Assembly (NCBI GenBank): GCA_965237675.1 | Contig: OZ250150.1 | Coordinates: forward strand, 4,224,001-4,288,000 | Length of the DNA: 64,000 nucleotides | Direction of reading: 5' to 3' | From: Candidatus Latescibacterota bacterium | GTDB lineage: Bacteria; Latescibacterota; UBA2968; GCA-2709665 | In this document: positions 13,901-28,152 of the stretch, piece after piece | How the letters are laid out: each line of letters opens with the position of its first letter | Position numbering within the stretch: position 1 is the stretch's first letter | The notes under the pieces: generated by a model | Told to the model about the DNA's origin: nothing | Databases searched by the model: none | Seen by the model: the letters and a program-made list of their open reading frames with translations, nothing else | Position numbers and translations under genes: made by a program

Positions 13901-13949
13901 CCACAATAAGCTTGTCCTTTCGAGCAAATCGAGTACATTTCCCTGTTAC

Positions 13950-14026
13950 GGGCCCTTAGCTCAGCTGGTTAGAGCGGCGGACTCATAATCCGTTGGTCGC
14001 AGGTTCGAGTCCTGCAGGGCCCACCA
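13950..14026 (+). tRNA. tRNA-Ile2 (CAT anticodon, lysidine type)
   Basis: GGGCCCT...AGGGCCC-A-CCA acceptor stem, D-arm TAGCTCAGCTGGTTAGAGC, anticodon loop CTCATAA, T-loop GTTCGAGTC. Resembles ileX-type rather than Met tRNAs. Confidence 0.92.
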
Positions 14027-14033
14027 AAACGCG

Positions 14034-14069
14034 AAAGAGGGAGTCCGAAAATCTATCGGCTCCCTCTTT
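14034..14069. terminator. Probable bidirectional intrinsic terminator
   Basis: AAAGAGGGAG...CTCCCTCTTT inverted repeat between the tRNA and the convergent nuclease gene. Confidence 0.7.
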
Positions 14070-14116
14070 AATCTTTTGGGCTTATATATTCAACATGACG
14101 AGACGTTTTCACCATG

Positions 14117-14773
14117 TCAAAAATCATCAACTTCGGCAGTAGATGTGTCTTTGTCCACACGATCAGGGCATTCACTTGCGGGGATATTACAATACCGACA
14201 TTCCCCAAAACTCGGAACTCTTTTGGCTGGTTCATTCGATGCCAGCCTGCGTATTAACTCCGAAAATCGCTTGACGAATTTCTCATCAACAGCAGATGAC
14301 GGGACAGCAACCTCCCGCTCTCCGTATACAACCCGCCCCTCAAGAGCAACATTTCTGTATTTCTCAGGAAACGCTTTGGGAACTGCATACATGTAGAGCA
14401 TTACCTGAACGTGATCTGATGCCCTTGGCTGACCCGTTTTGATGTCTATGATTCTGCAGCTATTTCCCTTCTTTGCGATTAAATCAGGCTTTCCCCCAAC
14501 CGTCGCAGTCGTTCCTGAAAGGTGAAAATAATTTTGAGTCTCGGTTGACACATCAAAACCTTTATCTTCCAGTTTCTTTTGATATTTATTCCTGGCTGCT
14601 GTATGTTCGAGTTGCCAAGCAGTTGAATCAAAATCACCTGGCAAAGCAGTCCAACTTTTCCTGTCATGTTGGGCTTGAAACCAGTTTGCCCACTCACATG
14701 ACGTTTCACCAGTAAGCAACTTCGTCAACCACGTCACCCAAACATACGGAAGACCAGATCTCTTTTCGGCCAT
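14117..14773 (-). CDS. PD-(D/E)XK nuclease, Cas4/AddB-like with 4 Cys
   Basis: 'GKPDLI...IIDIKTG', 'HVQVMLY', N-terminal Cys (SCEW) plus C-terminal 'CRYCNIPASEC'. Confidence 0.8.
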   Translation of the reverse strand: MAEKRSGLPYVWVTWLTKLLTGETSCEWANWFQAQHDRKSWTALPGDFDSTAWQLEHTAARNKYQKKLEDKGFDVSTETQNYFHLSGTTATVGGKPDLIAKKGNSCRIIDIKTGQPRASDHVQVMLYMYAVPKAFPEKYRNVALEGRVVYGEREVAVPSSAVDEKFVKRFSELIRRLASNEPAKRVPSFGECRYCNIPASECPDRVDKDTSTAEVDDF

Positions 14774-14844
14774 CTCCTCCTCACTTTCGAGACTTCCTAT
14801 CGCTCTGTGCCCATTTTAAGGAGACATTTTCCCCATTGCCCAGG

Positions 14845-16914
14845 TTATGCTCCCAGGTCATCGAGGAATTCGGAAGCGGGCTTGACGCCGGAAACCATCA
14901 GGTGGTCACGGGCACGCGTGCACGCAACATACAGCAAGTGTCTCTCCGTGTTGTAGACCTCCTCAAGGTCCGCGTCATCCGCGACGGTTTCAATGCGCTC
15001 CTGTCGCGGGATCACTTCGTCGTCGCAGGCCATGACGGCAACGGCTCGAAACTCCAGCCCCTTGGCAAGATGCATCGTCGCAACCGACACCCGACCGGTG
15101 GCCGTTTCACTGCATTCATCCAGTGTCTGGAATGAAAATCCCGATCCCTCGACGGCCTCACGCGCTCGGTCCAGTTCCCTCGCCGATCGAACAAATACCC
15201 CCATCTCACCGGCATCGACCCCCTTGTTCCCCAACGCCTTCAGCCAATTTCCGACTGCCTCACTCTCCTGCTGCGCCGCATCGAACAAGCGTATTTCCGG
15301 AGGTTCGCCGTTGAACGCCGAAACCGTCCCCCTTCGATTCTCGACGTTGCCATCCACATCGGCGACTTCGGACCCCAGAAGACGATCCGCTCGCATCCTG
15401 ATCTGATGGGACGTACGATAATTTAGCTTGAGTGTCTCAGATCTCACCCGGACATCCACGCCAGCTGCCTTCCAGGAAAACGGAGCCTGGAAAATCCGTT
15501 GTCCCAGATCACCCGAAAAGAATAGGCCGTTCGGCTTTTCGCCGCCCATAGCGGCCAGAAAACGAAGTTGGGCGACTCCTATTTCCTGAGCCTCATCCAC
15601 GACTATAAACTCATACGGTGGATGGCGACGTTCTTTGAGCCTCTCCGCGAGTATACCGCACATACCTGATCGCGTAATCAGGTTCCGTTCTGTCAATTTG
15701 ACCTTGACCCGTTCGAATATATTCCACAGGCTCGAACGCAGCTCAAGAGGCAGGCGGGGCTTGCGGCCGAGTCGTCTTACGTCGCGATAGGCCTCCCAGC
15801 CATCCAATTGCCACGCGTCAACGACATTCTCCCATTCGCTCACCAGAAAGTTGAGGGAAAAGCGATGTATTTCCTCCTCTTTGGCGCCTTCAGCCAATAG
15901 CTCGCGAACCATCTCCCCAGACGCAATTCTCGCGACACCGACCTGCGCCTTATAGACACGTTCGCATACTTGATCAATTGTGTTGACCTCCAGCCGTTCC
16001 ATTAACCGGGGTTCATTGCGAATCAGCCGCCTGACTCTGGAACGGAGAAAGTCGGCCAGGGTGTCGGAGAAGGTGGTGAGCAGAACCCGTGCGTCCGGAT
16101 TCGCGCGTGCTAGGAACACAGCTCGGTGAATTGCGACAACGGTTTTGCCAGTACCTGCCGGTCCGGATACGCGAAAAGGTCCGTTGTAGTCCCGTTCAAC
16201 AATCTTCCGTTGCGTCGGGTGCAGAAAAATCGCCCATTTCGCCCACGGAAAGTCGAGCGCAAGCTCGAGTTCGTCCTCGTTCGACACCAGCTTGAATCGT
16301 CGCTCCGCGTCTGGGTGCTCGAACGGGTCGCCGGAAACAACCGGCTCCGCCGGCTTCGGTGTCTCACCAACGGCGATCTGTAGCAACGCCTCCGCTGCTT
16401 CTTCGGGCAAGTGTTCCGACAGGTCCAATAAACTGTCTTCGTTAGCGTTACGTACGTCCTCCAGCCATTCTGGAGGAACCCCGTACTTCAAGAGATCTTC
16501 TTCCGGAGTCTCTGCGAACAAGATGGGCTTGACCGGCGGTTTCTGTTGCGGTTCCACATAAACCGGTACCACGACTTCCTTAACCGTTTCCTTTACTTCG
16601 ACCAATTGCGCCGCTCCGGTCCTGGGATGGACTTCCAATTTGCGCTTTTCCGCCCATTTGTACGCGTTGTCGTGGTGATCCACGTAGCACATCATCAGAC
16701 TCTTCGATGTACGGTGCACGATGATACGTACGTCGCGGTTCACGCGAACTGACCAGAAATTCGGGTCTTTAGCTCTGTCAACCTTGTGGAATTTCAATCC
16801 AGGATGTGCCGGGTTCATCTGCAGATCAAAGGCCGTGGTTTTCACGGCCTTTTGTTCGTTTCCGGTCAACCTGGCGAGGCTTTCGGTTAAGGTATGTGCT
16901 ATCCGAAATTCCAT
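14845..16914 (-). CDS. SF1 UvrD-like helicase with N-terminal RelE/ParE-like domain
   Basis: Walker A 'GPAGTGKT', 'VDEAQE', 'GDLGQRIF', 'NYRTS', 'TMHLAKGLEF', 'LLYVACTRAR'. N-terminus 'GLKFHKV...FWSVRVNRDVRIIV' is RelE-like. Confidence 0.85.
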   Translation of the reverse strand: MEFRIAHTLTESLARLTGNEQKAVKTTAFDLQMNPAHPGLKFHKVDRAKDPNFWSVRVNRDVRIIVHRTSKSLMMCYVDHHDNAYKWAEKRKLEVHPRTGAAQLVEVKETVKEVVVPVYVEPQQKPPVKPILFAETPEEDLLKYGVPPEWLEDVRNANEDSLLDLSEHLPEEAAEALLQIAVGETPKPAEPVVSGDPFEHPDAERRFKLVSNEDELELALDFPWAKWAIFLHPTQRKIVERDYNGPFRVSGPAGTGKTVVAIHRAVFLARANPDARVLLTTFSDTLADFLRSRVRRLIRNEPRLMERLEVNTIDQVCERVYKAQVGVARIASGEMVRELLAEGAKEEEIHRFSLNFLVSEWENVVDAWQLDGWEAYRDVRRLGRKPRLPLELRSSLWNIFERVKVKLTERNLITRSGMCGILAERLKERRHPPYEFIVVDEAQEIGVAQLRFLAAMGGEKPNGLFFSGDLGQRIFQAPFSWKAAGVDVRVRSETLKLNYRTSHQIRMRADRLLGSEVADVDGNVENRRGTVSAFNGEPPEIRLFDAAQQESEAVGNWLKALGNKGVDAGEMGVFVRSARELDRAREAVEGSGFSFQTLDECSETATGRVSVATMHLAKGLEFRAVAVMACDDEVIPRQERIETVADDADLEEVYNTERHLLYVACTRARDHLMVSGVKPASEFLDDLGA

Positions 16915-17066
16915 TTCGGTATCCGTCGTGATTGACGACCATAGGAAGTTCGTGTTCCTGGTACTGCTCGGCGGATCATCGGAATTGGACGACCGTGAGA
17001 TTTACCGTGGAAATGTCAGGCGCTGTCTTATGCTTAATGAACAATACCGTCCGGTCCCAATCTAAC

Positions 17067-18764
17067 TTACAAATTAACCCGCCATATACTCGTAGCCTGT
17101 TTCGCCATCCAAGCCTGGCGTGTGCGAATCTTCTCTACGGTCCAAGAGTCGTAGTCTTCTGCTAGTCTCCGGGTGATGGCGAAGTTACTCTTATGATAGA
17201 CCGGTCGTTTTTCGTCGAATCCCGCGTTTCCCAAATTGCGATTGTCAGCGGTCGCCATCAGTGTCATGTTTCCGAGACGGTAGGTGGACCCCTCTCTTTG
17301 CTGGTCGTTGAACTGCTCCCAGCCGTTGCCGGGATTCTCCGGCAGCACATGTTCGATGCCGTATCTCGCGCTCTCATTTTCATAGCTTTGTCCCGACATC
17401 TGTGCTTCCAGCCGGAACAGCATAAAGCGCACGATCTTTTTGTTACGACTACTAGTCGTTCGTAGTGCCTTGTCAGCAAACGCTGCCTTGAATTCCGGAT
17501 CATCCGGATACACGGGGTTAAGTTCTGCAATAGCAGCGGCCATGCTGTGTACACGGCCTTCCGCAATTCCCTGGGCAATCTGGTTGTACACGACCTCCTG
17601 CTCGTTGCTCTGGCGGCTACATATCACGTTGTAGCGAAACGAAACAACCGCTACGGCATGAAGAAATCGTCCGAAGCCGACACGGTCCTCTTCCGCGAAT
17701 CGCTCAAATGCCGCCAATAGTAATGCCAAGGGTTGACGGACGTTGAACATCTGCAACTGGGCCAGATTGGCGCGTTCTTCCGCTGTCCAAGAGTCGTCCT
17801 CCGGGCTTCGCAAGGCCGCATACACACGGGCACTCCTATCCATGTCGCGGATCAGCTCAAACGCTTTGGACTTATCGCAAATCGCGTTCCGAATGACTTT
17901 GAACAAGTCAGCCTTGCGCACCAGCCTGTTTCGGCTGTTCCAGAACACACGCAAAAACTCAGGAAGACTCTCACTCCCCAGCAAACCTACAATACCCTCC
18001 CATCGATCTTCCAGGTTGTCAATCTCGGATTCGTGCGGATTTCCGCGTGAGACGACCGAAAACAAGTAATTCTTGAGCAAATCGGTAGCGGACAAGCGCA
18101 CGCCGCGAGCATTTAGTGTCTCGAACACCTTGAAGGCATTCAATTCGTCAGTCACGGTAATGATCGTAAAGAACAGTTTATCTACAGCGACGTCAACGAA
18201 ACGCGCTACGGATTCACCTTCATTGCCACATCTTTCTCTGATATGCTCCTTGAACCAGATAAACGCGCGACGCATTAGATGTTCCGAGGCGTTTAGGCCC
18301 CTTTGCGGTAGGCGCTCCAGCGGCACCAGGTAATTCTGGTAAAAGCGATCGTTATGCCGGTTCAGCGTGAGCTTGGAGCGCGATATCAGGCTGACTGGAT
18401 CCAGGTAGCCGATGTAGTTGCTTCGTAACTGCTCAGCGCGTCGCTGTTGTGGGTCATTTGGATCGTCCGGCGGTGCTAGATCTACTAGATGCGCTATCGC
18501 CGCCAGCATCAACAAGCTAAGCGTGGTCATTCGCTGCTGTCCGTCGATAATGTCAAACGACCTGTTGTCCGAAGATTGCAGTACTAGGTAGCCCATGTAG
18601 TGAGCGGGTTCCGGGGCCTCGCCGAATAGCGCAACAATGTCCTGCCACAGGTCGTCCCATTCGTCGAGACCCCAGGAGTAGTCGCGCTGAAACATCGGCA
18701 CGCGATAGCTCAGCCCATTACCCATTAATTGGCGAAATGTGTTATTGGTCGTGTAAAAATTCAT
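17067..18764 (-). CDS. DUF262 + DUF1524 (GmrSD/SspE-like) nuclease
   Basis: 'VPMFQRDYSW', 'IIDGQQRMTT', 'FETLNARG' (DUF262); 'IEHVLPE...RLGNMTL...N' (HNH-like DUF1524). Confidence 0.9.
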   Translation of the reverse strand: MNFYTTNNTFRQLMGNGLSYRVPMFQRDYSWGLDEWDDLWQDIVALFGEAPEPAHYMGYLVLQSSDNRSFDIIDGQQRMTTLSLLMLAAIAHLVDLAPPDDPNDPQQRRAEQLRSNYIGYLDPVSLISRSKLTLNRHNDRFYQNYLVPLERLPQRGLNASEHLMRRAFIWFKEHIRERCGNEGESVARFVDVAVDKLFFTIITVTDELNAFKVFETLNARGVRLSATDLLKNYLFSVVSRGNPHESEIDNLEDRWEGIVGLLGSESLPEFLRVFWNSRNRLVRKADLFKVIRNAICDKSKAFELIRDMDRSARVYAALRSPEDDSWTAEERANLAQLQMFNVRQPLALLLAAFERFAEEDRVGFGRFLHAVAVVSFRYNVICSRQSNEQEVVYNQIAQGIAEGRVHSMAAAIAELNPVYPDDPEFKAAFADKALRTTSSRNKKIVRFMLFRLEAQMSGQSYENESARYGIEHVLPENPGNGWEQFNDQQREGSTYRLGNMTLMATADNRNLGNAGFDEKRPVYHKSNFAITRRLAEDYDSWTVEKIRTRQAWMAKQATSIWRVNL

Positions 18765-18941
18765 TAACTACCCACCTCCAGAATTCGTCTCGTTTAATCA
18801 GCTAGCTGATCCTTCGAAACGGTACTACACGCTCTCCTCTACACCTTCCAATATACACGAAACTCGGATGGAGAGTTGTCCCTGTTTCTATATTGGCACG
18901 TTGGGAATTCCAATCGTGACTTTGACGCAATCCTGAATTAG

Positions 18942-19613
18942 TCAGTGCTGGCAACCCGAGAGCTTTTCGACAATAGAATCGAAGTTTACCAACATCTGCC
19001 GTTCGAAAGATCCCCACGACCTATAACAACGCAACGAAGTTTTATGGAAATTGGGTGCGAACTTCGTGGCCTCGATTTTCGTCAGCACCACAGATAACGT
19101 TTCGTAGATATTTCTAATGTTTCCGTAATTGTCACGATTTGGTACTCTCTATGAATTCATGAACCCGCTTCTGATATTCGTTAGTCCTTCGTCGATATTA
19201 TAGTTCCAAAATTTCCTTTCCCTGTTGTTATTCGGAGATACGTCTCCGTTGCGGAAGTCTGACGACCAGCGACAGAAGTCATCGCACAACGACTGAAACA
19301 GCGCTTCCGAGACAACAAATTGATCCAGATCGGAATTTGGGACAAACGGGTTTCCGAATTTTCCTTTTTTTAATGACAACGACGAACACAGTCGTGCACT
19401 TCCGGTCATACTAATCGCTTTAGCCTCAACGCCAAGTTTCCTGCTAAGCCACGAACGAAGCGATTCGTAGACTGCCGGACACTCTCTGAATGCAAAGGGT
19501 ATCCCTTCCGAAAGCCATTGCCGAGCAATCGCTACTCGATCCGTGGCCGCGCCGTCGCACATAGCCTTCAGTAATTGTCTCACGGTCGGATAGCGGTCGG
19601 AAATTGTGGCCAA
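18942..19613 (-). pseudogene. Pol-beta-superfamily nucleotidyltransferase-like gene interrupted by in-frame TAG (19149-19151)
   Basis: 'TGSARL.SS...F..NSDLD' GS/DxD motif. The frame continues past the TAG as RVPNRDNY...SLRCYRSWGSFERQ...QH to a TGA at 18942. Confidence 0.6.
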
Positions 19614-19626
19614 TGATGCAGAAAAC

Positions 19627-20241
19627 TCAAATGGCTTGTTTGCACACCTCTCGAATCGAGCCGGGCTCTACCTTTGCTCGGTTATATCGCGCCAATAGGT
19701 AGGCACATCTTTGTTCTATTTTGCGTAGCCGTTTGGCCGAAGCTTCCCTTGGCTGTGGATACTTGAGGCGAGCTACGAATAGAGCTGCAGAGTTCAAGTC
19801 TGATGAAGCTGGATCTATTCCTAACCGTTCACATGCCTGAACAAAGTTGTTCATTCGCCAACCGTAGTATGCTACCCACAAATAGAGTCCTGGAAGGTCT
19901 TCTCTTGGGACGTATCGAGTAAGCCAAACTGCCAGAACGATTTCTCGGGCCTTTCTCCGGACGGTGTTATCGTATCCCCGCATCAGGACCCGGGCAAGCT
20001 GCATCGCAATCGTGGAGCCACCTTCTTTACGGCCACAAACAGTCGTTCTCCAAGCAGCACGACATAATGCAACCGGATCGAAACCTGGATGGCGAAAGAA
20101 CCGATGGTCTTCGCCAAGAATAAGCAACGAGCACATTTGCGCGTTCGGATGCGCTTCGCACTGACGGTCGTATGCGCGTTTAACCCGATCGATTTCCCTT
20201 TTCAACTCTTTCCACATCCCATTCCAATACGTCACGATCAT
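19627..20241 (-). CDS. GT51 (peptidoglycan transglycosylase-like) domain protein without membrane anchor
   Basis: 'EDHRFFRHPG', 'GGSTIAMQLAR', 'RRKARE' GT51 motifs; start overlaps the mod stop (ATGA). Confidence 0.8.
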   Translation of the reverse strand: MIVTYWNGMWKELKREIDRVKRAYDRQCEAHPNAQMCSLLILGEDHRFFRHPGFDPVALCRAAWRTTVCGRKEGGSTIAMQLARVLMRGYDNTVRRKAREIVLAVWLTRYVPREDLPGLYLWVAYYGWRMNNFVQACERLGIDPASSDLNSAALFVARLKYPQPREASAKRLRKIEQRCAYLLARYNRAKVEPGSIREVCKQAI

Positions 20242-23066
20242 ACCCTAAACACCTTCATCACCTCGTCCCCAAGGTGGTTGATCACCTTTACAGCGATCCG
20301 ACCGGAACTCGGTTTGGGGAAAGGCCGTGAAATGTCGCTGTGGAGGGTTTCCCAGGCATCCTGATTTATTTCCGCCTTTAGTGTGGTCTTGAGAGATTTG
20401 TAGGGGTCGTTGGCACCTAGGAAGTAGGCATGACGGACGAAAAAGCTCTCGTTGTTGTAGTCTGTATCCACGAACCAGCATGCGATTCCGTCTGCATTGT
20501 CACTCCTGATTTCGCCGGTGTTGGGATGGAACACGTCCACGCCGTTGACTTTGACCTGGATTTGACTATCGTCCGCGTCGAGGATGTCTATATCCGGTTC
20601 GCCAAAGATGACGAAAAGGTTGCCTTTACCGGTGTTTTTGAGGTCGTCGGCCATGTGCAGGTCGGCATTCATGCGTGCCTTGAGGACCGGAACCCGTCCG
20701 ACCTTGTTGAAGTCGGACGCGTGGGCGTCGTAATTGAAGGCGCAGGCGATCAGCACATCGAAGTCGGCGTCAGCTGCCTCCCGGGCGGCCTCAACGAGAT
20801 CGGGACGGGAGACGGTCCCGAATTCTGGGCCGATGAAGATGCCGGCGCGTTTCTCCAAGCCGTAGACGGATTCCGCTTCGACGTAGGTACCCTCTGCGCA
20901 AACGAGATCGCCGGGCCAGGGTCTCATCCCGGAGAATGATATGCGGTCCTCCTTGTGCGCCTGCTGGACGCCGGAGGTCTTTAGATTGTCCAGGATTATT
21001 CCGGCGAAGTCCTGCTTCTCTCCGTAGCCGAGCTTCCCTTCGGCAACGTTGTCGATTAACGCGTCTTCCTCATCGACACCGAGGAGTCGGTGCGGCGACA
21101 GGCTCTCTACCGTGAAGGGTCCAGCGACACGGACCTTTTTCTTGTCCTCGTAAGGCTTGTCGTAGAGGTATTCGTAGTCCGCTTTCCCGGCGATGGAGGC
21201 GTCAACTTCCTTTTGTCGAGCGATCCGCAGTTCCCACCATTCCTTGTGTAACTTTCTCGCTTCCCTGGACCAATCATCTTGGGAATCACGGGGGATTTCC
21301 CACGCCTCATAGGATGTCCGAAGTTCCTCGTTTAGCTTCGCGCGGAGAGTCTCGAGCGTTTCCTGGAATTTCTCCCAGATCACATCGATTTCGGCGTTGT
21401 TGGCGATGGACTTGAGGGTAATGTGGGGGACGCGTTCATACACGAAACCATGGCGGATGTTGTGGTAGGTCGGTGTTTCGGAGGGTGACTTGCGGACGAG
21501 CGCGGCTTCCTTGATCTGTCCTTCGCGGCTGTCGGCGAGCAGGTAGTAGGGATAACGGGCGCCCATGGTGCGGGCACGGGCAAGCGCCAGGGCAACCCGT
21601 GATGTGTCGATGGTGATCCAGCGGCGTCCCCACTGCTCCGCCACGTACGCAGTAGTGCCGGAGCCGCAGGTGGGGTCGAGGACGAGGTCGCCGGGGTCAG
21701 TGGTCATCAGTATGCAGCGTTGGATGATCTTCTGAGCCGTTTGAACTACGTAAATCTTTTCCTCAGTGAAAGAGCCAGTCAGCGTATCAGTCCAGAGATT
21801 TCCTATGGGAGTGACGGGAAAGTCGTCAATGAATCTAATGTAACTAAGGCTGTTTATTGCGTGCCCAAGGCGCATTGATTGAGAAAGTCGTATCATCCCG
21901 ACAAAATTCGTCTTCCAGTATCCGCGACCAGAACTAAAGACCCTACCTTGATGGTAAAACTCAAAATTTGTTGTTTCGCCTCCGCTCTGGGACGTTATTG
22001 TATCGTGGCGATAGATTTTCGCGTCATTTCCGATTTTTGTTCGATCGGACCGTTCCTCTTTCGTCATTGAAATACGACTCAGATCAGGCCTTTGCAGCTT
22101 CGAATACTGTCCTCCCGCGGTGAAGGTGGCGTCCTTCGTTGTGAATGGTCTCCGAAACTTCAGTACGTATATGTCTCTAGAGTACCAAATCAAGTAATCT
22201 GATACGGACGCAAGGTTCTTGTCCGTTTGGCTACTGGTCTTTTTTATTGTGATGAGAGAAACACAATTCTCCTCTCCAAACACCTCGTCCATCAACGCCC
22301 GCACCCGATGCACATTCTCGTCCCCAATCTGCACAAAGACTGACCCGCTCTCAGCCAGCAGGTCCCGCGCGACCGTGAGCCTATCACGCAAATACGTCAA
22401 ATACGAATGAATGCCATCCCGCCACGTATCCCGAAACGCCTTTACCTGTTCCGGCTCGCGGGTGATGTGGTCGGCATTGCCGTCCTTGACGTTGCGGCTG
22501 GTCGTGGACCACTGGAAGTTGGAGTTGAATTTGATGCCGTAGGGAGGGTCGACGTAGATGCATTGCACCTTGCCGCGCAACCCCTCCCGCTCCGCGAGCG
22601 ACGCCATGACCTGCAAGCTGTCCCCGAGAATCATCCGGTTCGACCAGTTGGCGTCGTGCTTGTAGAACTCCGTCTGGGCGTCCGCGTTCGGCAATCCGTT
22701 GAAATCGGCGAACAGGTCGGCCTGGGTGCCGGATTCGCCGTCCCCCTTCTCCGCCACCGATTCTTTGCTCCGCTGCCGCAGGTCATCGATCAGGATCTTC
22801 GGATGAACCTTCTCCTGGATGAAGAGCGGCGGCGCCTCCACGACGAGGTCCGACCAGTTTTGCTGGTCTTTGCCGCGCCATATAAGCTGCGGGTCAAGGT
22901 CCCGGTTACGCCGCTCATAGGCGACTTCAATCGGGCTACGGTCGCCTTCCGCCATCACCGATTGATACTCGGCCGTCGGAATATTCTTTCGCGATGCGTC
23001 CTTGTGCTGGAGGGTTTCGATGGTTTTGCTCGATCTTCGTTTCCTCATTGATTCCGGTCTCTCCAT
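20238..23066 (-). CDS. mod: Type III-like RM DNA methyltransferase (Mod), beta-class N6-adenine
   Basis: 'NRMILGDSL', motif IV 'YVDPPYG', then TRD, then motif I 'LVLDPTCGSGTT'; long C-terminal extension. Confidence 0.9.
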   Translation of the reverse strand: MERPESMRKRRSSKTIETLQHKDASRKNIPTAEYQSVMAEGDRSPIEVAYERRNRDLDPQLIWRGKDQQNWSDLVVEAPPLFIQEKVHPKILIDDLRQRSKESVAEKGDGESGTQADLFADFNGLPNADAQTEFYKHDANWSNRMILGDSLQVMASLAEREGLRGKVQCIYVDPPYGIKFNSNFQWSTTSRNVKDGNADHITREPEQVKAFRDTWRDGIHSYLTYLRDRLTVARDLLAESGSVFVQIGDENVHRVRALMDEVFGEENCVSLITIKKTSSQTDKNLASVSDYLIWYSRDIYVLKFRRPFTTKDATFTAGGQYSKLQRPDLSRISMTKEERSDRTKIGNDAKIYRHDTITSQSGGETTNFEFYHQGRVFSSGRGYWKTNFVGMIRLSQSMRLGHAINSLSYIRFIDDFPVTPIGNLWTDTLTGSFTEEKIYVVQTAQKIIQRCILMTTDPGDLVLDPTCGSGTTAYVAEQWGRRWITIDTSRVALALARARTMGARYPYYLLADSREGQIKEAALVRKSPSETPTYHNIRHGFVYERVPHITLKSIANNAEIDVIWEKFQETLETLRAKLNEELRTSYEAWEIPRDSQDDWSREARKLHKEWWELRIARQKEVDASIAGKADYEYLYDKPYEDKKKVRVAGPFTVESLSPHRLLGVDEEDALIDNVAEGKLGYGEKQDFAGIILDNLKTSGVQQAHKEDRISFSGMRPWPGDLVCAEGTYVEAESVYGLEKRAGIFIGPEFGTVSRPDLVEAAREAADADFDVLIACAFNYDAHASDFNKVGRVPVLKARMNADLHMADDLKNTGKGNLFVIFGEPDIDILDADDSQIQVKVNGVDVFHPNTGEIRSDNADGIACWFVDTDYNNESFFVRHAYFLGANDPYKSLKTTLKAEINQDAWETLHSDISRPFPKPSSGRIAVKVINHLGDEVMKVFRV

Positions 23067-23093: not shown

Positions 23094-23249
23094 TCAGACG
23101 TCAACGGACAGGCAACCTTCAACGGCCTCGTAGAGGTTGGTCAGCAACGCTTCGAAGGATTCCGCTTGCGTCGCACATCCAGGGATTGAGGGTACTTCCG
23201 CCCAATATCCGCCTTCTTCCGCTTGATGGATTTCAACTTTCAGTTTCAT
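23094..23249 (-). CDS. HicB-family antitoxin, short/orphan (51 aa; not in ORF track)
   Basis: Manual translation [51 protein letters not shown] matches the HicB 'EEGGY.A.VP.LPGC.TQG' pattern. Confidence 0.8.
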
Positions 23250-23266
23250 GGCTTTCTCATAGTTCG

Positions 23267-25018
23267 TTACGGACCAAGTGTGTGGGCTAGTGGTACGTAT
23301 TCCAACATCGCCGACGTTCCGATCATATCAACGAACCGCACAATCCATTCAAACCCGTTGACATCTGTGAGCCGCAACGGCTGATTCAATTTGAAGTGAA
23401 CGGGTTGCTCCTTGCCTTCGTCAATGGCGACGTTCGTCGCGTAAAGATACGTGCGGTCGAGATTGTCGAGGATCGGGTTGAGTCGCCCGGTTAGGTTCGG
23501 CAAATGGCCGGTTCTATCCGTGAACACCGCCGAGCCACCCATCGGCAACGGTTCAAGCTGCACGTGCAGCGATTCCGACGGGCGCCAATCCCGCTCCACG
23601 TGGGCGGTGTACCCCTGTGCCGCGCAGAAAACGGTAATGGGAAGTTCCGAGTGAAATCCAAAAGCGACCCGGCCAAACGTATCGGTTTTCCCCTCCATCC
23701 AGGTCTTGTTGGGATACAGTGTAACTACCTGCGCATCTGCAAGCGGCTGGCCGGCCGCGAATACCAACACTTCCCCTTTGATCCCCGTTACCGGCGGAGG
23801 GGCGGAAGGTATAGTCAGCCGCAGTTCTGCACCTCCGATCAGTTCGTAGTCCGGGTCGTGCCCTGTCAGCTCGTGGGTCTGCTCATAGATGATTGGAACT
23901 CCTTCGCCGCGTAGTTCCAGGAAGTACTGCCGATCACCCGCGCCGATGATTTCCCCTACCGCAAGCATACGGAGGATGGACGCGAGCGTTTCGTTGCGGG
24001 TGGCTTGTCGATTGCGCATGGCCTCGATAGGCAGCGTGTTGGGCAGGGCGCCCGGCGAGTACAACTCAAGGCGATCGTCAAAGATGAAGAGCCGTATCTT
24101 CCCGTTCTCTATCGAGTAGTCGCGGTGTACCACGGCGTTGACAGTGGCCTCGAATACTGCTCGCGGGCTAAATTGGGGAATCTCAACCCGCCCAGGATCC
24201 TTGCGCGCCGCCACCCGCGTGTTGAGCCTGACGAAATTGACGGTATCGCGAATTTGCTGGTCCAACGGACCGGTGATTGACGAGGCATCGTGCTGGCTTG
24301 CACGGCCGAGAACCGTGCCTCGATAGCGAATGGCCTCGACCAGAGCGCCTGGTATGTGCTCATCCGGGCGTGCGGTGCAGAGTAACACGCCGGCCACCGT
24401 TGCGCGGGTCACGCCGCTGTCATCCTCCCGCACCAACCCCAGCTTTGTGAGTTGGACCGTTGCAGGCTCGGTGGCGCGCGAGCTCAGGAATCGATCCGCC
24501 AAAGTCTCGTCGAGCGTGTTGGTTCCGGTTCCGGAAACGATCGCTTCGTCAGGACCAGGTAGACCAGAACGCCCCCGCTGCTGAAACAGACGGTTCAATG
24601 CTTCCGACGACAGTTCACGCTTCGCGCTGCCTTTACGGGAAAAATATCCTCCGGGGCTCTTGTGGACCAACGCGCTCTGTTCGACATGGACGATCAGCAC
24701 AAACGAACCGTCCGGCAGAGCCAGCCGTTGGGTGACGAACGCCAACGGAGGACGGATGCTATCCGAGCAAATCTCGCTGACGAAGGCTTCCAACGCATCC
24801 ATCTGTTTCCGGTTCATCGACCGCACCTCACCAGCGTCGGATACGCTGAAGATCACTGTGCCGCCAATGGTATTACCAAAAGCGGCCAACTCGTCTGCAA
24901 CCATGTCACGACGAGGCTCACGAACCCGGTTGTTGGCAAACACGACTTCTTTAAACTCAACGCTGCTGTCCTCGCCGAGTTTGAGTCGCTGCAACAGGCT
25001 ATCCGTGTTCCATAACAT
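23267..25018 (-). CDS. Schlafen/AlbA_2 + HATPase_c_4 (RecG-C-like) protein with extra C-terminal beta-rich domains
   Basis: '[10 protein letters not shown]...[10 protein letters not shown]', '[13 protein letters not shown]', '[11 protein letters not shown]', 'RNETLA', 'ELRGEGV'. Confidence 0.8.
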
Positions 25019-25053
25019 TGCATCTTCCCTTGGGCATGTTTCAACGAGCCAAT

Positions 25054-28000
25054 TTATCCGCGTGTTTCCGTCTTTAGATTCAGATCTCGGGGGCTTGCCT
25101 GGGCTGAAAACCGCTCGATTATTTCGTTGAACGCTGCTTCCACCTTGGACTCAAAGTCCGCCTGCATCTCATACACGTCAGTAAACTCTGCGAAAGCCCA
25201 GCGACCATAATTCCCGTGATTGTTTACTCCGGGCACCCAGTAGGTGTCCATGGTATCCTTCTTATGTTTGGCGTCCTCACCGCGATAGCCCTTGATCTCG
25301 ACAATAAGATGAAGGAGATCGTCCTGGCCTCGTCCGTCGTCAACGAGAACAATAAAATCAGGAATGTACGTCCGCGTCACGGAGCCGCGCCGGTAAGGAA
25401 CCTCGAGACCAAGATTGTGGTTTTTTACGTAAGCCCTGACGCTGCGATGGGATTCAGCGACGCGGCAAAATTCCGCTTCCCAGTCGCTATCCAAGACCAC
25501 CCAATTGACGTGGCAGCGGCGAGAATCCGTCTCGTAACGGCTGGTCCTGGTGGTATTGAAATTCACCTGAGCCGTCGAGCCTACCGGATTATACGGATCG
25601 AGCACGGCCTTGACCGGGCGACTGCCGATTGCCGCCCGAGTGATGGCGGCCGTGATGCGTTCACAGGCCATATCCGCAAGTTCCTGGTACATCAGTTGCG
25701 CAGGATATGTGCTACCCTTGCAAGTAAGGCAGGTATCGAGCCACTTCCGGGTAATGCTCTTGAGCTGTCCGAATAAATGAAGCTTGGGTTCCTCGCCCGG
25801 GTCCCGCCATTTGGTATATAGCAGCCGCTGGGTGAGGTAGAACAGAAGCGTGGATTGACGAATGTCATTTGTATGAACCAGATTGAGGTCCACGCCTTTG
25901 CCGATAATCCCCTGGTTTGTCGTGATGGATGGTCCGATGATATCCGGTGTTAATTCCAGAACCGAGTCCTCATTGAACTCGGCAGTTAACCTTTCGTCGG
26001 GCAGTTCCACTCGATATCCTGCCACTCGCGGGAAACGAATTTCAAGCGCGTCCCTTTCGGGTCGCACGGCCCTCACATGGACGGTTTCTCGTGGTGGTGT
26101 CGGCGTGACAACGACTGGCTTTGCGGTAAAGTCGAAAGGTATTCCCAGAACATCAGCGTACTCGACATCAAACAGCCCTTCGTCGTTGAGTTTGTAGGAC
26201 TGCCGGCGCAGCGCACGACCGACAACCTGCTCGCAAAGCAACTGGGTACCGAAAGCGCGAACACCCAGGACGTGACTGACGTTGTTCGCATCCCAACCCT
26301 CCGTGAGCATCGATACCGAAACCACACAACGAATCGAATCCCCCAGTCTACCGGATTTGCCGACGGTGTTCATGACCTCGCGGAGCAGTTCCTGGTCGCT
26401 GATCTTTTCGGCTTGTTGGCGATCGCCTGTACGTTCGATTATTTCTCGTCGAAAGCGTTCGATTTCATTGATAGCCATCTTTCGGAATTTCGTATCCAGC
26501 GCATCACCGGACTCCAACTGCTCACTGTCGATCAGTAGAGTGCGAGGGCGCGGGTGCCGCTGGCCATATTCATCGAAGTTGCGAAACAACTCCAGGCGTC
26601 CGTTCTCAAACGTCGATGAACCATCTTCGTTTTCACGATAAAAACCAGAGATATAATCGTATACCAGCTTGGAGGTCGAGGTGTTGTTGCAGACTACGAT
26701 AAAACATGGTGGCACGCCGATGCCGGCTTCCTCCATCAACTCGAACGTCTTCTTATAATGCCCATATAGTGCTGCCAACGCAGTCTGCAACTCCACGGGC
26801 AGACTGAGGGGATCGAGTGTCTTAGCCTTACCCCGCCCTTTCTTCGGCATATCACTTCGAATGTGTTCCCATAGGTTGCGGAACTTCGGCATATCCCCGC
26901 CGGGGATATTGTCGGCGACTGGCACGCGGGGCAGTTTGACGATGCCGCATTCGATGGCGTCCATCAGGGAGAAATCGCACATCGTCCACGGAAACAATGT
27001 CCCTTCTGCGTATCCCGAACCGCGCAGAAAGAAAGGCGTTGCAGAAAGATCCAGCACCCGGTTGATGCCGAGCTTTTTCCCCACCGTCTCCAGTCCCGAA
27101 ATCCAAAGGCGCGCGGCTTCCGTGTTCTTCTTGGCTTCCTTACTTTCGTCTCCCTTGAGTGTACCTTCCTCCCCTTCCCCCGGCTTTTCACGATAGCAGT
27201 GATGCGCCTCATCATTAAGGACCATGATGTTCTTGATTCCCATAAGTTCGGGCATGACCCGTTGGAGCATCTGTCCTTCAGTTTCCAAGGTAGACAGCGA
27301 CTCACCCCGACCCTGAAGCAAGGAACGGCCGCCCTTTGATAGTTCCAAACGTTCACGCAGCTTGAATGCGTGATAATTGGTGATGACGATCTTGGACTTT
27401 TCCAAGTCGGGCAGCATGTCGTTCGGAACCAGTTCGCTGCTCTGATAGTAACTGTCCGGGTCATTTGGCTGCAGGACACGCAGGCGATCCTTGATGGTGA
27501 TGCCGGGGGTGACAACGAGGAAGCCGCGCGTAAACCGGCTGCTCTGCGGCCGGCGTACTGCGTTGATGGTTTGCCAGGCGATCAACATCGCCATAACAGT
27601 GGTCTTGCCGGCGCCGGTTGCCAATTTAAGCGCCAGGCGCTGCAACCCTGTATTCGCTTCGTTGTTGGAACTTGCCAAGTGATCGAGGAATCTCTTGCCG
27701 GAAACACCGGCATTGGGCGCAACTTCTGTTAGCCAGATGACGGTCTCTACCGCCTCGACCTGGCAAAAGAAAGGTCGAATGTCATTGAACCGATGGTGCC
27801 GCCAATGCTGGAGCAGTCGCGCCGTTTCAGGCGACACCCGCCATTGTTTCGGATTTCGCAACCGTCGCCATCGGTCGACCTGTAACCGAACGCCGCTGAT
27901 GATTTCGGTTAGATCGTACCGCTGGCCTTCAGTCCCGAGTTTCCTGGCCGCCTCGTCGAAAACAATCGCGGATTGATCTACAGGCGATCCCTTCTGCTTC

Positions 28001-28152
28001 TTCGGTTTCGGAATCGGCGAAATGAACTCGGCGCGTCGCCGCATTTCGACGATTTTTTGCGTCGGCTGGCCTGTCTTGTCCAGTTCCCAGTGCGTGTTCG
28101 GGTACTCGTACGGCGAGTTGAGTATCGGTTGTTCGAAGAATTGATCGCTCAA
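25054..28152 (-). CDS. res: Type III-like restriction endonuclease subunit (Res; SF2 helicase + PD-(D/E)XK)
   Basis: 'LKLATGAGKT', 'NDEAHHCY', 'LSATP', 'SMLTEGWD', 'QVVGRALRR', C-terminal 'YIPDFIV...VEIKG'; TTG start with AGGAG SD. Confidence 0.9.
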   Translation of the reverse strand: MSDQFFEQPILNSPYEYPNTHWELDKTGQPTQKIVEMRRRAEFISPIPKPKKQKGSPVDQSAIVFDEAARKLGTEGQRYDLTEIISGVRLQVDRWRRLRNPKQWRVSPETARLLQHWRHHRFNDIRPFFCQVEAVETVIWLTEVAPNAGVSGKRFLDHLASSNNEANTGLQRLALKLATGAGKTTVMAMLIAWQTINAVRRPQSSRFTRGFLVVTPGITIKDRLRVLQPNDPDSYYQSSELVPNDMLPDLEKSKIVITNYHAFKLRERLELSKGGRSLLQGRGESLSTLETEGQMLQRVMPELMGIKNIMVLNDEAHHCYREKPGEGEEGTLKGDESKEAKKNTEAARLWISGLETVGKKLGINRVLDLSATPFFLRGSGYAEGTLFPWTMCDFSLMDAIECGIVKLPRVPVADNIPGGDMPKFRNLWEHIRSDMPKKGRGKAKTLDPLSLPVELQTALAALYGHYKKTFELMEEAGIGVPPCFIVVCNNTSTSKLVYDYISGFYRENEDGSSTFENGRLELFRNFDEYGQRHPRPRTLLIDSEQLESGDALDTKFRKMAINEIERFRREIIERTGDRQQAEKISDQELLREVMNTVGKSGRLGDSIRCVVSVSMLTEGWDANNVSHVLGVRAFGTQLLCEQVVGRALRRQSYKLNDEGLFDVEYADVLGIPFDFTAKPVVVTPTPPRETVHVRAVRPERDALEIRFPRVAGYRVELPDERLTAEFNEDSVLELTPDIIGPSITTNQGIIGKGVDLNLVHTNDIRQSTLLFYLTQRLLYTKWRDPGEEPKLHLFGQLKSITRKWLDTCLTCKGSTYPAQLMYQELADMACERITAAITRAAIGSRPVKAVLDPYNPVGSTAQVNFNTTRTSRYETDSRRCHVNWVVLDSDWEAEFCRVAESHRSVRAYVKNHNLGLEVPYRRGSVTRTYIPDFIVLVDDGRGQDDLLHLIVEIKGYRGEDAKHKKDTMDTYWVPGVNNHGNYGRWAFAEFTDVYEMQADFESKVEAAFNEIIERFSAQASPRDLNLKTETRG

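What the first reader, a model, noticed from the sequence alone, without database searches (positions are those of the whole stretch)
18942..20241. Anchor-less GT51 transglycosylase + nucleotidyltransferase cassette inside a restriction-modification operon
Seen: a 204-aa protein with GT51 motifs (EDHRFFRHPG including the catalytic Glu, GGSTIAMQLAR, RKARE) has no TM helix, signal peptide or transpeptidase domain. It is translationally coupled to mod (ATGA overlap) and is followed 13 nt later by a Pol-beta-type NTase (GS...SDLD). Both look AT-richer than the conserved parts of mod. Established: GT51 enzymes are normally membrane-anchored extracytoplasmic lipid II polymerases with a lysozyme-like fold, and NTases are frequent defence toxins or signal synthases. 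Inference: a candidate undescribed two-gene anti-phage or toxin-antitoxin module in which a cytoplasmic GT51 fold acts as sensor, effector or modification target.
Basis: partly seen in the sequence, partly recalled or inferred. Interest (0 to 1): 0.8.

Follow-up and report, generated by a model that had tools for sequence, protein, structure and literature searches.

The report
Anchor-less cell-wall polymerase plus nucleotidyltransferase cassette
A small enzyme that normally builds cell wall outside the membrane is found here without its anchor, always paired with an unnamed nucleotidyltransferase-like gene, and this mobile pair sits among anti-phage genes, although the copy in this window is partly broken.

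Summary
Window 19627-20241 (-) encodes a 204-aa protein with a full GT51/Transgly domain, both catalytic Glu motifs and no hydrophobic anchor. It overlaps mod by ATGA. A minimal Pol-beta-like nucleotidyltransferase (NT) gene follows.

The pair is a conserved cassette:
- NT lies directly downstream in 61 of 64 testable GT51-seeded loci.
- GT51 lies directly upstream in 67 of 67 testable NT-seeded loci.
- The genes usually overlap (47 of 51), and fused forms exist.
- No third gene is conserved.

The cassette is sporadic (4 of 53 genomes of the same order). It lies in defence islands, inside type I and type III R-M operons, in prophage accessory regions and on one plasmid. Neither protein matches PADLOC v2.0.0, and seven literature look-ups found nothing.

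The window copy is decayed. The NT gene has lost its ancestral start codon and carries an in-frame TAG, which contigs from four sequencing runs reproduce. A second, diverged copy in the same genome has an intact NT and a frameshifted GT51.

My best reading is an undescribed toxin-antitoxin-like or abortive-infection module. A cytoplasmic GT51 enzyme would attack peptidoglycan precursors under control of the NT. That mechanism is inferred, not shown.

The parts
19627..20241 (-). Anchor-less GT51 (Transgly) gene, 204 aa, apparently intact
   Evidence: ORF. PF00912 at E 6.4e-25. All invariant family residues are kept. The AF2 model's top 24 PDB matches are all GT51.
18942..19640 (-). MNT-like nucleotidyltransferase (NT) gene of an unnamed family, here a pseudogene
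   Evidence: tblastn of the read-through product aligns over residues 1-219 to intact partners. The family has 477 representative clusters. An intact relative folds with pLDDT 96.5.
19638..19640 (-). Position of the ancestral NT start codon, now AAC (Asn)
   Evidence: The window reads ...ANKPFEFSASLA. Relatives read M/V-K/R-PFE at this place. The only remaining start is the TTG at 19611-19613.
19149..19151 (-). In-frame TAG that truncates NT after the GF.. strand, before the C-terminal third
   Evidence: reference position 162. Contigs from 4 runs in 2 studies reproduce it with 0 differences.
20238..20241 (-). ATGA overlap of the mod stop and the GT51 start
   Evidence: ORF coordinates and sequence.
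20238..23066 (-). Type III mod methyltransferase, 942 aa (context, not part of the cassette)
   Evidence: PF01555. PADLOC MTase_III PDLC03632, 1452 bits. Adjacent to the cassette only in L001-L004.
17067..18764 (-). GmrSD / HEC-06 type IV restriction enzyme (context)
   Evidence: PF03235 and PF07510. PADLOC HEC-06 at E 4e-227.
23094..28152 (-). res (25054-28152), an AlbA_2/HATPase_c_4 protein (23267-25018) and a HicB-like 51-aa ORF (23094-23249), all upstream of mod (context)
14117..16914 (-). UvrD-like helicase (14845-16914) and Cas4-like PD-(D/E)XK nuclease (14117-14773) (context)

Best explanation
The window holds a decayed copy of a conserved, horizontally mobile two-gene cassette.

Gene 1 is a roughly 200-aa GT51-family glycosyltransferase. 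It lacks the membrane anchor and transpeptidase domain but keeps all catalytic and pyrophosphate-sugar-binding motifs. Gene 2 is a roughly 225-aa protein of an unnamed family built around a minimal Pol-beta (MNT-like) nucleotidyltransferase core. The genes are translationally coupled and are sometimes fused into one polypeptide. Both products therefore act in the cytoplasm, where NTPs are available.

My reading is that the pair is a toxin-antitoxin-like or abortive-infection defence module of the type VII kind. The NT would hold the GT51 enzyme in check by nucleotidylation. Once released, the GT51 enzyme would consume or mis-polymerise peptidoglycan precursors (lipid II, or UDP-MurNAc-linked precursors) from the wrong side of the membrane. 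That would stop wall synthesis and abort infection.

Shown: the cassette, its coupling, its mobility, its defence-rich context and its decay in this window. Inferred: the cytoplasmic location, the defence role, and which partner is the effector and which the regulator.
For: Family and enzyme features
- 536 short Transgly proteins were found.
- E44, D45, R96, K97, E100 and GGST..Q are invariant.
- A sequence profile and the predicted fold match only GT51 structures.

Pairing
- NT lies directly downstream in 60 of the 65 short-family loci by tblastn, plus L063 by hhalign at 99.7%.
- GT lies directly upstream in 67 of 67 NT-seeded loci that have at least 600 nt of upstream sequence.
- The NT start overlaps the GT end in 47 of 51 intact pairs, by 14 nt in 21 of them.
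- Fused forms: 5 representative clusters of 428-634 aa, P0271, and L053 as a single 404-aa frame.
- No third gene is conserved. The largest neighbour cluster covers 4 of 60 loci, among 553 ORFs.

NTase core
- G80, S101, D102 and D104 are invariant.
- The best fold hits are MNTs of HEPN-MNT pairs: 1no5 Z 4.9, 1wot, 5yep, 8xeh.
- hhalign against 21 PF01909 proteins gives E 1.9e-4 over the GS..SDLD region.

Context
- 18 of 60 loci have R-M, defence or TA domains within two ORFs, and 4 more have a transposase or integrase. The same count in canonical PBP loci is 0 of 15. Fisher p = 0.0097.
- The cassette sits inside type I R-M operons in L019, L020 and L034.
- It lies in prophage accessory regions.
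- On an Aliarcobacter plasmid it lies between IS21, DUF4365, PLD, TIR and DUF4917 genes.

Distribution and topology
- Only 4 of 53 genomes of the same order carry it. This genome has two diverged copies.
- In the 9 of 120 members that have an N-terminal hydrophobic helix, the charge pattern places the GT51 domain on the cytoplasmic side (positive-inside rule, inference).
Against: - No experiment, and no homology to a tested system, supports the defence reading.
- The NTase assignment is weak. PF01909 stays below its cut-off (10 of 51 members, best E 0.026). Foldseek finds nothing at E <= 0.001. VIA Z stays under 5. hhalign probability is only 47.7%.
- In HEPN-MNT operons the NTase gene comes first (recalled). 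Here it comes second.
- If NT were an essential antitoxin, its loss beside an intact GT51 should be lethal. Yet that is the state of the window, L014, L015, L032, L050 and L107. GT-only breaks are about as frequent: L057, L133, L131 and copy 2 in this genome. Neither partner looks strongly toxic on its own.
- Roughly half of the more distant proteobacterial loci have only housekeeping neighbours.
- The loci are not phylogenetically independent. ORF calling was a crude longest-ORF method. Most loci come from MAGs.
Confidence: 0.45

Rival explanations
1. Same cassette with reversed roles. The NT is the toxin or effector; for example it nucleotidylates a cellular target, as MenT/AbiEii-type NTases do. 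The GT51-like protein is its antitoxin, sensor or modification target.
For: - Gene order is GT first, NT second. This fits the common antitoxin-first layout (recalled rule).
- NT is broken beside an intact GT in the window, L014, L015, L032, L050 and L107.
- Four of the six loci with internal NT stops have them at reference positions 150-169. These remove a core strand that carries invariant R201 and Y203.
- One member matched PF08843 AbiEii at E 0.06.
Against: - GT51 keeps every catalytic residue, which a mere binder would not need.
- GT-only breaks with an intact NT also occur: L057, L133, L131 and copy 2 in this genome.
- The decay tally of about 6 against 4 shows no real asymmetry.
Confidence: 0.2
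2. An accessory envelope or antibiotic-related pair rather than an immune module. Examples are a cytoplasmic glycan-handling enzyme with a nucleotidyl-activating partner, or a decoy and modifier pair against GT51-targeting phosphoglycolipid antibiotics.
For: - Many distant loci lie among housekeeping genes.
- L039 and L057 lie next to beta-lactamase-like genes.
- Small NTases include antibiotic nucleotidyltransferases (recalled).
- RefSeq names the GT gene 'biosynthetic peptidoglycan transglycosylase'.
Against: - The pair is present in only 4 of 53 genomes of the same order.
- Its context is enriched in R-M genes, defence genes, prophages and a plasmid.
- It is often pseudogenised.
- A cytoplasmic decoy could not meet an antibiotic that acts outside the membrane (inference).
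Confidence: 0.12
3. The pair already belongs to a named defence or TA system that the libraries used here do not contain.
For: PADLOC-DB here is v2.0.0 of 2023. DefenseFinder could not be run. bioRxiv supplements are closed.
Against: - No PADLOC hit for either protein.
- No Pfam or NCBIfam family for NT.
- Atlas clusters are all 'hypothetical protein'.
- RefSeq calls NT 'hypothetical protein'.
- Full-text look-ups found nothing.
Confidence: 0.08
4. The GT51 ORF is a leftover fragment of a PBP or mtgA gene, and the neighbouring NT is unrelated to it.
For: The best NCBIfam matches are PBP1c, PBP1a and MtgA models.
Against: - All those matches lie far below their cut-offs, for example 42.9 against 182.65 bits for MtgA.
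- There are 536 relatives of similar length.
- The family has its own invariant residues: C37, W64, YYGW.M and KYP.P.
- Pairing with NT is obligate in both directions.
- Fused forms exist.
Confidence: 0.01

Closest known systems
Monofunctional peptidoglycan glycosyltransferase MtgA and the GT51 domains of class A PBPs (PF00912; structures 3vmq, 3nb6, 2oqo)
   Same: Same domain, fold and catalytic motifs: EDxxF..H.G, GGST..Q and RKxxE.
   Different: - No N-terminal N-in/C-out membrane anchor and no transpeptidase domain.
- Scores lie far below the MtgA and PBP equivalog cut-offs.
- Family-specific residues: AMQ in place of TQQ, YYGW.MN, KYP.P and conserved Cys.
- Obligately paired or fused with a cytoplasmic NTase-like protein.
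- Sporadic, mobile distribution.
HEPN-MNT (HepT-MntA) type VII toxin-antitoxin pairs (structures 1no5, 5yep, 8xeh)
   Same: - Two small coupled genes, one of which is a minimal Pol-beta NTase.
- These MNTs are the best, though weak, structural neighbours of the NT model.
- The GS...DxD signature aligns by hhalign.
- Both are abundant in mobile and defence contexts.
   Different: - The partner is a GT51 enzyme, not a HEPN RNase.
- The NT is twice as long, with an N-terminal helical WLSEGIP region, an inserted helical hairpin and a C-terminal extension.
- The gene order is reversed (recalled).
- Nucleotidylation of the partner is not shown.
PrrC/RloC-type abortive-infection genes embedded in type I R-M operons
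   Same: Position. The cassette sits between or next to hsdM, hsdS and hsdR in L019, L020 and L034, and after a type III mod in the window. The comparison with prr is recalled.
   Different: Unrelated proteins. The cassette has two genes rather than one. It is linked to R-M in only a minority of loci.
Zeta/PezT toxins of epsilon-zeta TA systems (recalled: they phosphorylate UDP-GlcNAc and poison peptidoglycan synthesis)
   Same: A precedent for a cytoplasmic TA toxin that kills by attacking peptidoglycan precursors. This is the mode of action proposed here.
   Different: A different fold (kinase) and a different antitoxin. There is no sequence relation. The resemblance is functional speculation only.

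Membership tests
GT51 / Transgly (PF00912) | Domain match above Pfam's gathering score | tested here: met
   88 bits against a cut-off of 27, E 6.4e-25, profile positions 25-176 of 178. All 120 listed relatives carry PF00912.
GT51 / Transgly (PF00912) | Catalytic Glu of motif 1 (EDxxF) and Glu of motif 3 (RKxxE), plus the GGST motif | tested here: met
   E44, D45, R96, K97, E100, G74, S76 and T77 are invariant in 26 sequences. The equivalent residues are invariant in 51 sequences. They align to the Aquifex PBP1a GT domain. The motif names are recalled.
GT51 / Transgly (PF00912) | Lysozyme-like GT51 fold | tested here: met
   AF2 model with pLDDT 79. The top 24 Foldseek PDB hits are all GT51, with probability 0.97-1.00 and TM 0.44-0.62.
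Monofunctional MtgA (TIGR02070) / class A PBPs | N-terminal transmembrane anchor that places the domain outside the cytoplasm | tested here: not met
   The window's highest 19-residue hydropathy mean is 0.61. Only 9 of the 120 top relatives have an N-terminal hydrophobic helix, and its flanking charges suggest the opposite topology. No dedicated TM or signal-peptide predictor was available.
Monofunctional MtgA (TIGR02070) / class A PBPs | Score above the NCBIfam equivalog cut-off; a transpeptidase domain for PBPs | tested here: not met
   TIGR02070 scores 42.9 against 182.65. PBP_1c scores 88.9 against 494.2. There is no PF00905 match, and the protein is only 204 aa.
Pol-beta superfamily minimal nucleotidyltransferase (PF01909, MNT) | hG[GS] ... 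[DE]h[DE]h signature | tested here: met
   G80, S101, D102 and D104 are invariant, and S81 is at least 90% conserved, in 50 and 51 sequences. The window reads TGSAR...NSDLDQF. The form of the signature is recalled.
Pol-beta superfamily minimal nucleotidyltransferase (PF01909, MNT) | Sequence-profile match | tested here: inconclusive
   The window's product has no Pfam hit even at E 10. 10 of 51 family members match PF01909 weakly (best E 0.026; 13.3 bits against a cut-off of 21 for member 1). hhalign against 21 PF01909 proteins gives probability 47.7% and E 1.9e-4 over 40 columns.
Pol-beta superfamily minimal nucleotidyltransferase (PF01909, MNT) | NTase alpha/beta fold | tested here: inconclusive
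   The model is very confident (pLDDT 96.5). Foldseek finds nothing at E <= 0.001. The best VIA-align hit is MNT 1no5_B (Z 4.9, rmsd 3.7, 93 aligned), followed by 1wot (4.2), 5yep (4.1) and 8xeh (3.9), among unrelated rows of similar Z.
Type VII HEPN-MNT toxin-antitoxin | HEPN RNase partner | tested here: not met
   The partner is a GT51 domain in every locus examined.
Type VII HEPN-MNT toxin-antitoxin | The NTase covalently nucleotidylates and neutralises its partner | not testable with these tools
   This needs mass spectrometry of co-expressed proteins.
Known or candidate defence systems in PADLOC-DB v2.0.0 | HMM match of either protein | tested here: not met
   0 families for GT and 0 for NT at E <= 0.01, while the neighbouring genes hit MTase_III, HEC-06 and others.
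Type III R-M operon (as an integral component) | Conserved linkage to mod and res | tested here: not met
   mod-like sequence lies next to the cassette only in L001-L004. L016 has a weak, different methyltransferase. That is 5 of 80 loci. res matched in 1.

The most novel reading that the evidence does not exclude
A peptidoglycan polymerase domain has been recruited into the cytoplasm as a suicide effector of a new toxin-antitoxin or immune module. When released from control by its dedicated nucleotidyltransferase, it polymerises or consumes lipid II (or UDP-MurNAc precursors) on the inner face of the membrane. This collapses wall synthesis and aborts phage infection. It would be the first GT51-based immune effector and a new NTase-regulated (type VII-like) TA class.
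Probability: 0.2. Interest if true: 0.85.

Novelty: new variant of a known kind. Interest (0 to 1): 0.68.

Why it matters
GT51 enzymes are textbook extracytoplasmic, membrane-anchored lipid II polymerases and antibiotic targets. A widespread family that has lost the anchor, kept its catalytic residues and is welded to a cytoplasmic nucleotidyltransferase has not been described, as far as my searches reach.

If the pair is an immune or TA module, it adds a new effector chemistry: attack on wall precursors from inside the cell. It also adds a new partner for MNT-like regulators, and a soluble GT51 enzyme that could be useful for biochemistry.

It also shows concretely that genes embedded in R-M operons are good places to look for new modules. 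Several cultured bacteria carry intact copies, so the question can be tested directly.

Tried and rejected
- Complex prediction on cognate L001 GT and NT alignments gave no verdict (score 0.02; controls were not run). This says nothing either way.
- Foldseek of the NT model against the PDB found nothing at E <= 0.001.
- A PDB sequence-profile search with A4 found only chance-level hits, the best at E 0.084.
- NCBIfam, Pfam and PADLOC gave no family for the window's NT.
- The phages collection (INPHARED) had no tblastn match for NT.
- No sequencing run that holds the stretch is on record as RNA, so expression is not addressed.
- The decay pattern does not identify the toxin. NT-only breaks: window, L014, L015, L032, L050, L107. 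GT-only breaks: L057, L131, L133, copy 2. I rejected this line as not asymmetric.
- I considered that the in-frame stop might be programmed recoding. I rejected it because the four clustered stops use TAG, TAG, TGA and TAA, and other genes here end normally.
- L021's 356-aa downstream ORF is not an NT relative (hhalign probability 0.1%). L021 and L059 are GT51 genes without NT. L052 has a frameshifted GT and no NT.
- L010's long ORF is not a fusion, because GT and NT lie in different frames.
- Literature look-ups found nothing on a GT51 plus NTase pair:
  - Full-text searches. I saw only listings and abstracts.
  - Term look-ups inside PMC12839542, PMC13092281 and PMC13586616. I saw passages only, and no supplements.
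- Earlier findings of this scan: nothing.
Full report
**1. What is in the window**

All genes around the finding lie on the minus strand. In order of transcription they are:

| Coordinates | Product | Evidence |
|---|---|---|
| 25054-28152 | Type III res | ResIII and an endonuclease domain |
| 23267-25018 | AlbA_2/HATPase_c_4 protein | |
| 23094-23249 | HicB-like ORF, 51 aa | |
| 20238-23066 | Type III mod | PADLOC MTase_III, 1452 bits |
| 19627-20241 | GT51 ORF | see below |
| 19149-19613 | NT ORF | see below |
| 17067-18764 | GmrSD/HEC-06 enzyme | |
| 14845-16914 | UvrD-like helicase | |
| 14117-14773 | Cas4-like PD-(D/E)XK nuclease | |

This is a defence island.

The 204-aa ORF matches Pfam Transgly at E 6.4e-25, covering nearly the whole profile. 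Its NCBIfam matches are PBP1c, PBP1a and MtgA models, all far below their cut-offs. Its start overlaps the mod stop as ATGA. GC falls to 0.43-0.52 over the two genes, against 0.54-0.59 in the conserved parts of mod.

**2. The GT51 protein belongs to a distinct family of short proteins**

A search restricted to lengths of 112-357 aa found 536 proteins at E <= 0.001. The 120 listed all carry PF00912, and most are 186-215 aa.

In alignments of 26 and 51 members the GT51 catalytic and substrate-binding motifs are invariant: E44-D45, G74/S76/T77/Q81, and R96-K97..E100. Family-specific residues are invariant as well: C37, W64, Y125/G127/W128/M130 and K160-Y161-P162.

A family profile finds only GT51 structures in the PDB; the Aquifex PBP1a GT domain scores E 1e-20, and MtgA also matches. 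The AF2 model has pLDDT 79, low in residues 48-72. Its top 24 Foldseek hits are all GT51 structures.

The window protein has no hydrophobic stretch (highest 19-residue hydropathy mean 0.61). Of the 120 relatives, 9 have an N-terminal hydrophobic helix. In those 9 a short neutral or acidic tail precedes the helix and an Arg-rich stretch follows it. By the positive-inside rule this puts the GT51 domain in the cytoplasm. That is the opposite of MtgA and the PBPs. This is an inference, not a prediction by a dedicated tool.

**3. The downstream gene**

The TTG-started ORF carries TGSAR...NSDLD and stops at the TAG at 19149-19151. The frame then continues, open and homologous, down to 18945. It has no Pfam, NCBIfam or PADLOC family.

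An exhaustive HMMER search of 1.84 billion representatives with the read-through product found:
- 477 proteins at E <= 0.001;
- 309 at E <= 1e-10;
- most of them 220-240 aa long and matching query residues 1-219.

The full-length protein is therefore about 225 aa, and the window's copy is truncated.

Relatives also begin about 10 residues earlier, with M-K/R-P-F-E. The window keeps ...N-K-P-F-E-F..., with AAC at the start position and no other start codon before the TTG.

Contigs from 4 public runs (2 studies) reproduce 18900-20300 with 0 differences. The TAG is therefore not an assembly slip, although one of these runs may be the assembly's own source.

An intact relative folds with pLDDT 96.5 and pTM 0.91. 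Evidence on what fold this is:
- Foldseek finds no PDB match at E <= 0.001.
- In an all-against-all VIA-align search the top hit is the MNT HI0073 (1no5_B: Z 4.9, rmsd 3.7, 93 residues aligned).
- Three other MNTs of HEPN-MNT pairs appear among the top 21 rows, alongside unrelated rows of similar Z.
- Ten of 51 members touch PF01909 below its threshold.
- hhalign against an alignment of 21 PF01909 proteins from related genomes aligns GS...SDLD, with E 1.9e-4 and probability 47.7%.

I call it an MNT-like NTase with moderate confidence. Beyond the core, it has an N-terminal helical region carrying the invariant W-L-S-E-G-I-P motif. It also has an inserted helical hairpin, and a C-terminal strand and helix carrying invariant R201 and Y203.

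**4. The two genes form an obligate pair**

*GT51-seeded scan.* A scan of one genome per species (185,579 species) gave 215 confirmed stretches, of which 80 were kept.
- Fifteen of the 80 (L066-L080) are ordinary 646-893-aa PBPs.
- The other 65 belong to the short family.
- tblastn finds NT immediately downstream on the same strand in 60 of these 65.
- hhalign adds L063 at 99.7% probability.
- L035 ends at a contig edge and cannot be tested.
- L021 and L059 lack NT, and L052 has a frameshifted GT and no NT.
- The result is 61 of 64 testable loci.

*NT-seeded scan.* The reverse scan used 80 metagenome loci and 3 viral loci. All 67 loci with at least 600 nt of upstream sequence have GT51 directly upstream. 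In one of them, L131, only GT residues 1-61 match.

*Coupling and fusion.* In 51 intact pairs the NT start overlaps the GT end in 47, by 14 nt in 21; the start codons were chosen by a heuristic. Fusions occur: five representative clusters of 428-634 aa have Transgly at the N-terminus and NT at the C-terminus. There is also P0271 of 418 aa, and L053 reads as one 404-aa frame.

*No third gene.* Among 553 neighbouring ORFs, no cluster occurs in more than 4 of 60 loci.

**5. Where the cassette lives**

*Range.* Record titles span Latescibacterota, Gemmatimonadota, Acidobacteriota, Poribacteria, Nitrospirota, Campylobacterota, Chlorobium, and alpha-, gamma- and deltaproteobacteria.

*Patchy distribution.* Within the window's own order, 4 of 53 genomes carry NT, the own genome included. 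That is 2 of 14 other genomes in the same genus.

*Defence neighbours.* I took the two nearest called ORFs on each side: 228 ORFs in 60 loci. At Pfam E <= 1e-10, 18 loci have an R-M, known-defence or TA domain:
- Type I R-M: L008, L019, L020, L034.
- N6_N4, TaqI_C or Dam methyltransferases: L004, L006, L016, L018, L054.
- Mrr: L005, L013, L061.
- GmrSD and AlbA_2: L002.
- AAA_21 plus DUF4276: L003.
- DruA: L007.
- PemK: L025.
- NERD: L036.
- PRTase-CE: L037.

Four more loci have a transposase or integrase (L014, L015, L030, L032). Which domains count as defence-related is my own judgement from recalled knowledge. I left out borderline loci: L001, L028, L041, L047 and L053.

*Control.* The 15 canonical PBP loci from the same scan, treated the same way (49 ORFs), gave 0. 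One-sided Fisher p is 0.0097, or 0.0027 with the mobile-element loci included. The loci are not independent, so these p values flatter the result.

*Inside R-M operons.* In L019 the cassette sits between hsdM and hsdS-hsdR. In L020 it follows hsdM-hsdS. In L034 it precedes rhuM-hsdR. This is the position that abortive-infection genes such as prrC occupy (recalled).

*Mobile elements.*
- In L165 the cassette follows P2-type gpU and gpD.
- In L166 it lies among accessory genes of a lambdoid prophage.
- In L167 it lies between an integrase and a serine recombinase.
- On Aliarcobacter cryaerophilus plasmid pM830MA, RefSeq calls the pair 'biosynthetic peptidoglycan transglycosylase' and 'hypothetical protein'. 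It lies between IS21 and genes for DUF4365, PLD, TIR and DUF4917 proteins.

*Against the defence reading.* About half of the more distant proteobacterial loci have only housekeeping neighbours such as gcvP, polA, efp/earP and LysR regulators.

*Link to mod.* mod-like sequence adjoins the cassette only in the closest relatives, L001-L004. In L002 and L003 only 3' remnants of mod are left. The cassette is therefore a passenger of the R-M operon, not a component of it.

**6. State of the cassette in this genome**

The genome has two copies.
- Copy 1, in the window: GT intact, NT without its start codon and with a TAG.
- Copy 2, 140 kb away: 45-51% identical, with housekeeping neighbours. Its NT is intact. 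Its GT is frameshifted by a 1-nt deletion in a G run just before GGST. I could not check that deletion against reads.

Across all loci, breaks fall on either gene about equally:
- NT only: window, L014, L015, L032, L050, L107.
- GT only: L057, L131, L133, copy 2.
- Both genes: L064, L113.

This argues against a simple picture in which one partner is lethal without the other. Alternatively, many of these breaks are MAG errors.

**7. Mechanism**

*Shown:*
- a self-contained, translationally coupled, sometimes fused pair;
- a catalytically complete GT51 domain without the usual anchor;
- an MNT-like partner;
- mobility, sporadic distribution and defence-rich surroundings.

*Inferred:* both proteins are cytoplasmic. 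The reasons are that fusions have no membrane segment between the two domains, an NTase needs NTPs, there is no signal sequence, and the anchored subclade has an inverted charge pattern.

In the cytoplasm, the only GT51-type substrates are lipid II at the inner leaflet or MurNAc-pyrophosphoryl nucleotides. Consuming either would stop wall synthesis. That is how zeta/PezT toxins and single-gene phage lysis proteins kill cells (recalled).

By analogy with HEPN-MNT, I propose that the NT controls the GT51 enzyme by nucleotidylation. My odds are:
- about 0.6 that the pair is a TA-like or defence module;
- about 0.2-0.25 for this particular division of labour;
- about 0.2 for the reverse, with NT as the effector;
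- about 0.12 for a non-immune envelope or antibiotic-related role.

**8. Known or new**

- PADLOC v2.0.0 has no model for either protein.
- NT has no Pfam or NCBIfam family.
- PHROGs has only families of unknown function: phrog_33002 for GT and phrog_32008 for the N-terminal half of NT.
- Atlas clusters are 'hypothetical protein'.
- Five full-text searches and three in-paper look-ups found no description.
- DefenseFinder, newer PADLOC releases and preprint supplements could not be consulted, so I leave about 0.08 for an existing name.

**9. Verdict**

There are three amendments:
1. The cassette is independent of the R-M system.
2. The 13-nt gap reflects a lost start codon.
3. The copy in this window is a decaying one.

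The finding about the family is the interesting part.

Noticed in passing
G000:C1:4381900-4383264 (L083:8927-10283), 140 kb from the finding: A second, diverged GT-NT cassette (45-51% identical) lies in the same genome with the opposite defect. Its NT is intact. Its GT is frameshifted by a 1-nt deletion in a G run just before the GGST motif. One intact GT and one intact NT therefore remain in the cell, on different cassettes.
   Followed up: partly
window 19149-19151; L107, L116, L140 (also L028 and L063, whose NT ORFs end early): Premature stops in NT genes cluster. Four of the six loci with internal stops have them at reference positions 150-169 of about 225, using TAG, TAG, TGA and TAA. The NT ORFs of L028 and L063 also end there. 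My rough post-hoc odds of this arising by chance are 0.01-0.02. It is unexplained.
   Followed up: partly
P0055, P0060, P0062, P0066, P0074, P0086, P0098, P0099, P0120 (GT51 relatives): A subclade (9 of the 120 top relatives) has an N-terminal hydrophobic helix with a neutral or acidic tail before it and Arg-rich residues after it. This suggests N-out/C-in topology, the reverse of MtgA and the PBPs.
   Followed up: partly
window 12086-18764; L001, L002, L003: The island abuts dnaG (12086-13900, +). It shares a UvrD-like helicase, a Cas4-like PD-(D/E)XK nuclease and GmrSD with the closest loci, in varying order. L002 and L003 also have dnaG next to the island. This looks like a recurrent insertion hotspot beside dnaG.
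   Followed up: no
window 23094-28152: The type III R-M has an unusual layout. res lies upstream of mod, with two genes between them: an AlbA_2/HATPase_c_4 protein (weak PADLOC matches to pAgo-associated models) and a 51-aa HicB-like ORF. No HicA was called nearby.
   Followed up: no
window 20242-20300: Short-read contigs of all four runs break at about 20246, the junction of the mod 3' end and the cassette. Summed contig depth rises there from 5-65 to 37-130. The mod 3' end may be shared by more strains or organisms than the cassette is. Contig depth is a weak measure.
   Followed up: no
window 19365: One run's contig (X6, depth 5) lacks one base inside the NT pseudogene. This may be an error or further decay in a related strain.
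   Followed up: no
L039:4113-5825 and L057:7299-9034: In two gammaproteobacterial and deltaproteobacterial loci the cassette lies next to beta-lactamase-like genes: PF00144 plus a GNAT in one, an OXA-like PF00905 protein plus a metallo-beta-lactamase fold in the other.
   Followed up: no
window 21750-22249: GC dips to 0.45 inside mod, against 0.54-0.59 for the conserved parts of the gene. This probably marks a swapped target-recognition region.
   Followed up: no
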